Shown in pieces: positions 58,893-59,624 of a stretch of DNA of 64,000 nt. The first letter of the stretch is position 1. Each line of letters opens with the position of its first letter. Below the pieces are notes generated by a model. The model did no database searches. It had not been told where the DNA came from and was given only the letters and a program-made list of their open reading frames with translations. Origin of the DNA: Podarcis muralis (taxonomy: Eukaryota). The position numbers and the translations under genes are program-made. The stretch lies in assembly GCF_964188315.1 (NCBI RefSeq), contig NC_135667.1, positions 24,800,001 to 24,864,000 of the forward strand, read 5' to 3'.

Positions 58893-59624
58893 TGTCAGAG
58901 CTGCCTCAGGTCCCAGCTCACAAAGGACCAACGCCAGTTCCTCTTTATATACATAAGTCTTTATTGAAGTTCATTGTCGGTTTGACAGCCGCGGCGCGCA
59001 GCCCTACGTCTGAAACCCTAGACCGTCGAAGCTCCGTCTGAGTCTCCTCCCCCCAGACACCAGTTTAAGACCCTAGCCTTGCTCCACCTCTTCCTCTGCT
59101 CCCTTTTCCTCTGGGTCCGCCTGTCCGCCGGGGTTTTCCCCTTTCTGGACTCTTCTGACGCTGACTCCCCCGAGTCTTCCCCCTCCCTCCGGCGGGCTTT
59201 AGGACCTGGTTCCCAATCCGGGCTTTCTGCTGTCCCGCGCGCCTGTACATTTGAACTTGGCGCGCGCGCCCAGCCTGCCACCTTCCTTCTGACCGTTATA
59301 CTGCTTCTGTCGCTGCTTGCCGGAGGAGAGGCTGACTCTGACCTATGAGACTCTTCCCCCCCACTACGCTCCGGTGGGGAAGCTGGCCCTGATTTCCAGC
59401 TACTGCTCTGGGAGTCTCCGCTGGCCCCCTGCTTCTGGTGTGTCATCCCTGGGACCCCCCTTGCCCTGGCCATCGGCGCTCCCTTCTGGGAATCTTCTGA
59501 TTCACTGGAGAGGCTCATGGAATCTCTCGGGTCACTGTCATTCTGCCCTCCGCTGCCCTCAGATTCTTCCCCTTCGCTCTCCATTTCCTCTCTCCCCTGC
59601 GCCTCTGCTCCTGAGCCCCTGACA
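58893..59624 (-). mobile_element. Solo LTR (732 bp), probably Gypsy, CpG-rich and young
   Basis: Perfect TGTCA...TGACA termini; perfect 5-bp TSD GATGT (58888-58892 and 59625-59629); minus-strand AATAAA about 66 nt from the 3' end; uninterrupted frame from 59623 to 59018. Confidence 0.93.

What the first reader, a model, noticed from the sequence alone, without database searches (positions are those of the whole stretch)
58893..59624. Young solo LTR almost entirely occupied by an uninterrupted ORF (acidic/Ser-rich, then basic)
Seen: on the minus strand a stop-free frame runs from the second base of the LTR (T|GTC AGG GGC, VRG) for about 200 codons to 59018, ending about 55 nt before AATAAA. 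An internal ATG at 59584 gives 188 aa: MESEGEESEGSGG...SSESEDS...RRTQRKREQRKRWSKARVLNWC, with an NLS-like end. The same register and architecture appear in two other LTRs in this window. Known: U3-overlapping ORFs exist in retroviruses (HIV nef, MMTV sag), and from memory some vertebrate Gypsy pol frames read through the PPT into the 3' LTR. Inference: squamate Gypsy-like elements may encode a conserved disordered accessory domain within the LTR, and solo LTRs would scatter this coding cassette near host promoters. Caveat: low T content favours long frames by chance. This is the best candidate here for an undescribed system.
Basis: partly seen in the sequence, partly recalled or inferred. Interest (0 to 1): 0.7.

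Follow-up and report, generated by a model that had tools for sequence, protein, structure and literature searches.

The report
Retrotransposon integrase tail encoded inside LTR
This 732-base repeat is a leftover end (solo LTR) of a young jumping gene in what is likely a lizard genome, and its long reading frame is not a gene of its own but the tail of the element's Pol protein, kept under purifying selection, which likely helps carry the integration machinery into the nucleus and onto chromatin.

Summary
Observation confirmed: a 732-bp solo LTR (5-bp target duplication) with a 201-codon open frame from its second base. Alone the frame is only mildly above chance (shuffle P 0.013-0.038). Full-length relatives in the genome are self-priming Tf1/Sushi-type Gypsy retrotransposons; in 3 of 4 paired copies of the youngest sister family one 1566-1567-aa pol frame runs from protease through the polypurine tract to this ORF's stop. 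Between subfamilies dN/dS is 0.23-0.38 (other sense frames 1.1-3.8). So the ORF is Pol's C-terminal tail and fills all of U3. It is not a scattered stand-alone cassette: the internal ATG is not conserved, the predicted start site lies at the ORF's end, and this copy's flanks have no RNA reads in 4 runs. Two distant Sushi families here also read 109-117 codons into the LTR with the same acidic-then-arginine-rich layout; one carries an HMGN-like RRSARL motif. Pol extending into the 3' LTR is known in plant chromoviruses (CR domain). The vertebrate case was not found in my searches. A nuclear-import/nucleosome-tether role is inferred, not shown.

The parts
58893..59624 (-). Solo LTR, 732 bp, family A of a Tf1/Sushi-type Gypsy retrotransposon
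   Evidence: TG..CA ends, TSD, paired copies flank gag-pol elsewhere in G000
59625..59629 (-). 5' copy of the 5-bp target-site duplication
   Evidence: empty site at about 57897 shows it once
58888..58892 (-). 3' copy of the target-site duplication
59018..59623 (-). 201-codon frame plus stop: C-terminal tail of Pol/integrase, covering all of U3 and the first 19 nt of predicted R before the stop
   Evidence: continuity with pol; dN/dS 0.23-0.38
59582..59584 (-). Internal ATG (188 aa); not conserved in families B and C
59249..59272 (-). WARAPSSN block, nearly codon-invariant across families A, B, C: likely also a DNA cis element (contains a GCGCGCC run; E2F-like label recalled from memory)
   Evidence: conservation lines; position
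59075..59128 (-). Arginine-rich segment (residues 166-183), the only predicted helix of 4 or more residues; starts with RRTQR at 59122-59108; candidate NLS / nucleosome anchor (inferred)
   Evidence: (low-confidence model, mean pLDDT 49)
59064..59068 (-). TTAAA, TATA-like element inside the VLNW codons, 29 nt before the predicted start site (inferred)
59029..59039 (-). Predicted first 11 nt of the transcript (R start), complementary to the primer-binding site of full-length copies: self-primer
   Evidence: 26 of 31 leaders pair 11/11, 5 pair 10/11; variable position 22 C-G, 8 T-A, 1 T-G, 0 C-A
58960..58965 (-). AATAAA polyadenylation signal (predicted)

Best explanation
The ORF is the last 201 codons of the pol gene of a Tf1/Sushi-type Gypsy retrotransposon, stranded in a solo LTR, and in full-length elements it likely works as a disordered integrase tail whose arginine-rich end helix would bring the integration complex into the nucleus and tether it to nucleosomes. 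Shown: pol runs in one frame through a degenerate chromodomain, an acidic linker and the polypurine tract into U3 and stops just inside predicted R; the tail evolves under purifying selection; U3 therefore does double duty as promoter and coding sequence. Inferred: the genomic RNA (R-U5-gag-pol-U3-R) carries U3 only at its 3' end, where it is translated as part of Pol; a solo LTR that starts transcription at R cannot express it; recombination between the two LTRs left this copy. Inferred and untested: the tether/NLS function, by analogy with the plant CR domain, the Ty1 integrase tail and the HMGN motif. My odds: Pol-tail identity about 0.93; nuclear/chromatin-directing role about 0.55.
For: Continuity: 3 of 4 paired family-B elements hold one 1566-1567-aa frame from protease to the tail's stop (domains); 4 of 22 family-A elements are open from the chromo-like domain to the tail's stop; UniRef protein P0002 (1498 aa, RT-RH-IN-SH3) ends in this tail at 61% identity over the whole query (it may come from this same genome, so it is not independent). 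In-frame junctions: B 7 of 10, C 5 of 7, distant family G 20 of 29. Selection: six pairwise dN/dS values 0.23-0.38, all 95% intervals below 0.6, third-position excess p 0.018 to 8e-7; the two other sense frames give 1.09-3.79; a neutral simulation keeps the frame open in 1.4% (0.2 substitutions/site) to 0.07% (0.63) of 3000 runs; open tails differ in length by whole codons (201, 207, 209, 211, 216). Generality: family E reads 109 codons into its LTR and its C-terminus scores above 500 of 500 shuffles on the A/B/C profile; family G reads 102-117 codons in. Net charge is negative in the first half and +6 to +10 in the last 45 residues in families A, B, C, E, F, G. Family G carries PRRSARLK, 7 of 8 residues of the HMGN RRSARLSA acidic-patch motif in most copies (PMC12487698 passages); A/B/C hold [RK][RKG]T[QL]R at the start of the predicted helix. 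The plant CR domain is likewise an arginine motif at the start of a helix, joined to integrase by a poorly conserved tether (PMC11302176 passages) and encoded in the 3' LTR (PMC3059260 passages).
Against: No function was tested. In family A only 7 of 18 independent 3' junctions are in frame (18 of 29 before removing copies with identical flanks), and the 5 family-A copies with the longest intact enzyme frames (1250-1390 aa) all leave the tail's frame at or before the junction; the differences are G-run lengths and are not clustered on the tree (6 changes against 5.8 for shuffles; family G 8 against 7.9), which fits recurrent slippage or assembly error but does not prove the tail is required. 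The tail is far less constrained than the enzymes (0.07-0.13) though more than the acidic linker (0.45-0.51). The family-G pair gives 0.46 with an interval reaching 1.03, and within-family shared-versus-private ratios differ little in A216 and C. The G tail does not score on the A/B/C profile (32 of 500 shuffles as high), so a common origin of all tails is not shown. The A/B/C motif is not an exact HMGN motif, and family B lacks its second arginine. Some conserved blocks overlap promoter, start-site and primer sequences. No Pfam, PDB or Atlas match supports any function.
Confidence: 0.6

Rival explanations
1. The tail is real Pol sequence but mostly a tolerated spacer: selection keeps it stop-free, soluble and compositionally biased (for example so that the stop codon lies near the poly(A) site and the RNA avoids decay, or as a simple NLS carrier), with no specific chromatin partner.
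For: Stops of families A, B, C, E and G all fall near the TATA/R boundary; tails of distant families share layout but little sequence; dN/dS is only modestly below the linker's; many family-A copies are off-frame.
Against: Blocks such as SLSSESEDSQKGAP, SSWKSGPASPPERS, EPGPKAR and RKRWSK are invariant in protein while their codons change synonymously; C-terminal spacing is kept between A/B/C and E at 16.5 bits, above all 500 shuffles.
Confidence: 0.27
2. The ORF is a separately expressed accessory gene (nef/sag-like) that starts at the internal ATG, and solo LTRs supply it when host transcription reads into them.
For: An in-frame ATG in a purine-rich context exists in family A; reads from LTR-family copies with host flanks are present in 4 of 4 RNA runs, so some copies lie in host transcripts.
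Against: The ATG is absent in families B and C; constraint extends upstream of it and across the PPT; no separate ATG-led ORF of 150 aa or more lies in the 3' part of three family-B elements; this copy's flanks have no reads.
Confidence: 0.06
3. The open frame is a by-product of a purine-rich, T-poor promoter and of recent copying, with no protein-level selection.
For: Single-copy shuffle P is only 0.013-0.038; copies are 97-99% identical; some blocks are conserved at DNA level.
Against: Frame-specific dN/dS below 1 and third-position excess; codon-multiple length variants; neutral simulation.
Confidence: 0.04

Closest known systems
Tf1/Sushi group of chromoviruses (Ty3/Gypsy, Metaviridae)
   Same: gag, then PR-RT-RH-IN-SH3 (Tf2-1-like) order, chromodomain homologue, 5-bp TSD, 11-nt self-priming PBS as described for Tf1 (PMC7175516 passage; PMC6317226 passages).
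   Different: Chromodomain of families A/B is degenerate (no Pfam Chromo hit, cage tryptophan and first aromatic residue replaced); Pol continues about 350-380 aa past it, 201-216 aa of that inside the LTR.
Plant CRM group A centromeric retrotransposons (CR motif / CHDCR; Cereba, Beetle)
   Same: Chromovirus whose pol frame extends into the 3' LTR and ends in an arginine motif at the start of a helix behind a variable tether, with loss or replacement of the classic chromodomain (PMC3059260, PMC3605345, PMC11302176 passages).
   Different: Vertebrate, self-priming rather than tRNA-Met primed; no sequence homology to the CR motif was shown (not tested with CR sequences); copies are enriched at both chromosome ends, not shown at centromeres; a chromodomain remnant is kept under strong constraint (dN/dS 0.06-0.10).
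Ty1 integrase disordered C-terminal module
   Same: Long disordered integrase tail, dispensable in vitro (PMC8487063 abstract); a small targeting domain and NLS lie in Ty1 integrase (PMC7459421 and 10.1101/2019.12.18.879569, search listing only).
   Different: Ty1 is a Copia element and its tail is internal, not LTR-encoded (recalled); no sequence similarity tested.
HMGN / Dsup nucleosome-binding motif (RRSARLSA, PPRRSSRLT)
   Same: Family G tail holds PRRSARLK; A/B/C hold RRTQR-like and E holds RREAR/RRESR at similar distance from the C-terminus.
   Different: Short motifs arise by chance in arginine-rich sequence; binding is untested; the window's own motif is only a loose match.
Retroviral U3-overlapping genes (HIV nef, MMTV sag; recalled)
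   Same: Coding sequence overlaps U3.
   Different: Those are separate genes with their own start and spliced RNA (recalled); here the frame is the end of pol and the ATG is not conserved.

Membership tests
Ty3/Gypsy LTR retrotransposon | PR-RT-RH-IN order between two LTRs with PBS and PPT | tested here: met
   Pfam on full-length copies; LTR pairs, PBS, PPT
Ty3/Gypsy LTR retrotransposon | No envelope gene (not an endogenous retrovirus) | tested here: met
   No separate ATG-led sense ORF of 150 aa or more in the 3' part of 3 family-B elements; gag hits are Retrotrans_gag / Ty3_capsid
Tf1/Sushi group | Self-priming: PBS complementary to an 11-nt LTR sequence at the predicted RNA start, no tRNA PBS | tested here: met
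   31 leaders, 26 perfect and 5 with one mismatch or wobble, covarying position; leaders are related, so not independent; the actual start site was not mapped
Chromovirus | Chromodomain after the integrase GPY/F-SH3 region | tested here: inconclusive
   No Pfam Chromo hit in families A/B, but the region scores 35-45 bits on a profile of 15 chromovirus chromodomains against a shuffle maximum of 5-7; sister family E has Pfam Chromo at E 4.6e-8 and groups with A/B at 100/99 on the integrase tree: a degenerate homologue
Tf1/Sushi group | RT/IN phylogeny with named Tf1 and Sushi-ichi references | not tested
   The tree held database relatives (Anolis, Rhineura, fish, unnamed environmental) but no named reference elements
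Plant CRM group A (CR domain) | pol frame extends into the 3' LTR | tested here: met
Plant CRM group A (CR domain) | tRNA-Met primer binding site | tested here: not met
   PBS is self-complementary to the LTR; so it works like CRM at most and is not a member
Plant CRM group A (CR domain) | CR motif homology and centromeric location | tested here: inconclusive
   No TRARAK-type motif in the tail; no CR sequences were compared; copies are enriched in the terminal 1 Mb at both ends of contigs, centromeres not located
Stand-alone U3 accessory gene (nef/sag-like) | Own conserved start codon, frame independent of pol | tested here: not met
   ATG not conserved; frame continuous with pol
HMGN-like acidic-patch binder | RRSxR motif | tested here: inconclusive
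   Exact RRSAR in family G, only RRTQR in the window's family
HMGN-like acidic-patch binder | Binding to the H2A-H2B acidic patch | not testable with these tools
   Needs a binding assay

The most novel reading that the evidence does not exclude
Squamate Sushi-type retrotransposons have turned their whole U3 promoter into the gene for an integrase tether that ends in an HMGN-like arginine anchor for nucleosomes, convergently with the plant CR domain; in the A/B/C clade, where the chromodomain has lost its cage and the tail has doubled, this module steers insertions towards chromosome ends (22 of 97 top copies in the terminal 1 Mb, against 6 of 120 for a young family with an intact chromodomain).
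Probability: 0.25. Interest if true: 0.75.

Novelty: new variant of a known kind. Interest (0 to 1): 0.5.

Why it matters
It corrects how such LTRs are read: thousands of candidate matches in this genome (2883 first-look candidates; not a copy number) carry an open frame that gene predictors may call as a gene, yet it is a piece of pol. It gives a vertebrate parallel to the plant CR domain, whose mechanism is still described as unknown (PMC11302176 passage), and offers short peptides that can be tested directly for nuclear import and nucleosome binding. It is also a clear case of a promoter that is at the same time protein-coding under selection, and, if the tether idea holds, a route to explaining where vertebrate chromoviruses insert.

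Tried and rejected
Pfam on the tail: 0 families. PDB profile search: 0 hits to E 10. Atlas: the window protein could not be read; the homologous part of P0002 gave no usable hit. Representative-protein search: only 4 relatives, all 55-61% identical. AlphaFold2: mean pLDDT 49, too low for a fold search, none run. Complex prediction of residues 158-201 with host H2A-H2B: no answer, score 0.02 against a mark of 0.34, not counted either way. RNA: no RNA holder listed among indexed runs; raw reads cover LTR-family and internal sequence at low depth in 4 runs of 2 studies but map across many copies, show no start or end site, and give no clear strand signal, so they neither show nor exclude translation of the tail. 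Idea that long tails are confined to one clade: the tree put 12 labelled rows on one branch (labels given by family, 9 of 36 rows dropped because the cut motif was not found), but family G, found later and not in that tree, also has a 102-117-codon tail, so exclusivity is rejected; short C-termini of database proteins may be off-frame or cut copies. Family G was sought as a tail-less control and turned out not to be one. Earlier scan notes: none found. Literature: seven relevant full-text searches found LTR-extending pol only for plant chromoviruses and nothing on a vertebrate LTR-encoded integrase tail; subscription papers and Repbase entries are not in the library, and no supplements were opened, so prior description is not excluded.

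Full report
Observation. The element at 58893-59624 (-) is a 732-bp solo LTR with TG..CA ends and a 5-bp duplication on both sides; another copy of the host repeat in the window shows the empty site. It lies between olfactory-receptor genes, 1.1 kb upstream of a frameshifted one and 2.5 kb from the next. The frame from base 2 is open for 201 codons. For one copy this is only mildly unusual: 1.3-3.8% of composition-matched shuffles do as well. Of the 30 closest genomic copies 25 keep the frame and 24 are solo LTRs with a target duplication.

What the element is. Pairs of this LTR 5.6-5.8 kb apart enclose gag (Retrotrans_gag, Ty3_capsid) and pol with protease, RT, RNase H, integrase and a Tf2-1-like SH3 domain, with no separate envelope-sized ORF. 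The sequence after the 5' LTR is not a tRNA site but the complement of an 11-nt stretch near the end of the ORF: 26 of 31 leaders pair perfectly, 5 have one mismatch or wobble, and the one variable position covaries (22 C-G, 8 T-A, 1 T-G, 0 C-A). [quoted passage not shown] It places the predicted RNA start at window 59039, with TTAAA 29 nt upstream inside the VLNW codons. The ORF therefore covers all of U3 and ends 19 nt into predicted R. The chromodomain of families A/B has no Pfam hit but is a clear degenerate homologue (35-45 bits, shuffles at most 7) that lacks the cage tryptophan. Closest named proteins are UniRef entries labelled Podarcis muralis, which is why I call the host a likely lacertid lizard; they may derive from this same genome.

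The ORF is the end of pol. In family B (LTRs about 70% identical to A, copies 99% identical to each other) 3 of 4 paired elements have one 1566-1567-aa frame from protease through the polypurine tract to the tail's stop; the fourth is frameshifted upstream. P0002 shows the same. In family A 4 of 22 fetched elements are open from the chromo-like domain to the stop and none is intact over all of pol. Against my reading, only 7 of 18 independent family-A junctions are in frame, and the five longest enzyme frames leave the tail's frame at or before the junction. The differences are lengths of G runs; off-frame copies are scattered on the trees, which fits repeated slippage or assembly error. In-frame counts are 7 of 10 for B, 5 of 7 for C and 20 of 29 for family G.

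Selection. Pairwise dN/dS among one natural copy each of A201, A216, B and C is 0.23-0.38 with all intervals under 0.6; third positions carry the excess. The same DNA read in the two other sense frames gives 1.09-3.79; only the antisense frame that shares third positions mirrors the signal. Enzyme domains give 0.07-0.13, the chromo-like domain 0.06-0.10, the acidic linker 0.45-0.51. Neutral divergence of this size would close the frame in more than 98% of simulations. Among 139 collected LTRs, 57 of 81 A, 27 of 29 B and 25 of 29 C are open; these were found by similarity to open queries and include duplicates. Several blocks change only synonymously, while WARAPSSN is nearly codon-invariant and likely also a DNA element. 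The internal ATG is ACA in B and ATA in C.

How general. Family E (435-bp LTR, Pfam chromodomain) reads 109 codons into the LTR, continuous with integrase in 2 of 3 fetched elements, and its C-terminus matches the A/B/C profile above 500 of 500 shuffles; database proteins P0018-P0023 show related ends. Family G (canonical chromodomain, many copies with 1560-1581-aa frames) reads 102-117 codons in, in the same register, acidic first and basic last, and ends in PRRSARLK in most copies; it does not match the A/B/C profile. The older family at 43952 has the register and the acidic start, but its link to pol was not tested and its C-terminus does not match.

Mechanism. Shown: a selected, low-complexity Pol tail (10% order-promoting residues; predicted disordered except helix 166-183). 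Inferred: it stays on integrase, spaces an arginine-rich helix away from the core, and serves nuclear entry and chromatin contact. The precedent is close. [quoted passage not shown] HMGN and Dsup bind the acidic patch through RRSAR/RRSSR (PMC12487698 passages), as several viral proteins do through arginine anchors (PMC9040877 passages). [quoted passage not shown] A solo LTR would start transcription at R and so would not express the tail; this copy's flanks have zero depth in 4 of 4 RNA runs, though the sampled animals may lack the insertion or the tissue may not express the region.

A lead on targeting. Top LTR hits of A, B and C lie in the terminal 1 Mb of contigs C1-C19 in 26 of 101 cases (2.6% expected), D and E in 0 of 76. 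Flanks of 24 of the 26 were compared; 4 are segmental duplicates, leaving 22 of 97 (two further hits may be the two ends of one element). Young family G gives 6 of 120 (Fisher p 1.6e-4 against A/B/C). Both ends of the same contigs are hit. These are top-40 or top-150 lists, not censuses, LTR hits are compared with internal hits, and age, recombination and duplication are not controlled, so this is a lead only and cannot be assigned to the tail rather than to the altered chromodomain.

Verdict. Real and explained in kind: an LTR-encoded Pol tail of a Sushi-type chromovirus. Pol running into the 3' LTR is known in plants; I found no report of a long, selected, U3-filling tail in vertebrate elements in seven searches, within the limits of the library. 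PMC3601003 (passages seen) describes Sushi LTRs as T-rich in U3, unlike these purine-rich ones. New variant of a known kind; interest 0.5.

Noticed in passing
window 5138-63129: Cluster of about a dozen intronless olfactory-receptor genes in both orientations, with tandem duplications of 5-6 kb units.
   Followed up: no
window 56748-57772 (-): Olfactory-receptor gene split into two frames near 57323 (likely a frameshifted pseudogene), 1.1 kb downstream of the LTR on the same strand.
   Followed up: no
window 43952-44444 (+): Older solo-LTR family (copies 82-90% identical) whose U3 reads as a tryptophan-rich acidic frame in the same register; no full-length partner was looked for.
   Followed up: partly
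window 50224-50400 (+): Short LTR-like piece with a 42-codon acidic, tryptophan-rich frame in the same register, apparently cut by a SINE-like repeat (label inferred).
   Followed up: no
G000:C20: 24 of 40 internal-region hits of family A and 30 of 150 family-G hits lie on this 30-Mb contig (2% of C1-C20), many as segmental duplicates; typical of a non-recombining chromosome such as a W (inferred).
   Followed up: partly
L250, L251 (family G LTRs): A young Sushi family with canonical chromodomain and an LTR-encoded tail holding PRRSARLK, nearly the HMGN nucleosome-binding motif; its U5/R part has pyrimidine-rich tandem repeats. Probably the best peptide for a binding test.
   Followed up: partly
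L031:6147-6950: A 3' LTR followed directly by another PBS and gag start: tandem elements sharing an LTR.
   Followed up: no
P0049, P0053 (unnamed environmental proteins): Distant chromoviruses whose pol also reads a few dozen codons past a GGGV-like PPT in the same register, suggesting short read-through is old in the group.
   Followed up: no
P0024, P0054: Database receptor gene models fused to pieces of these integrases, probably annotation artefacts from elements in receptor clusters.
   Followed up: no
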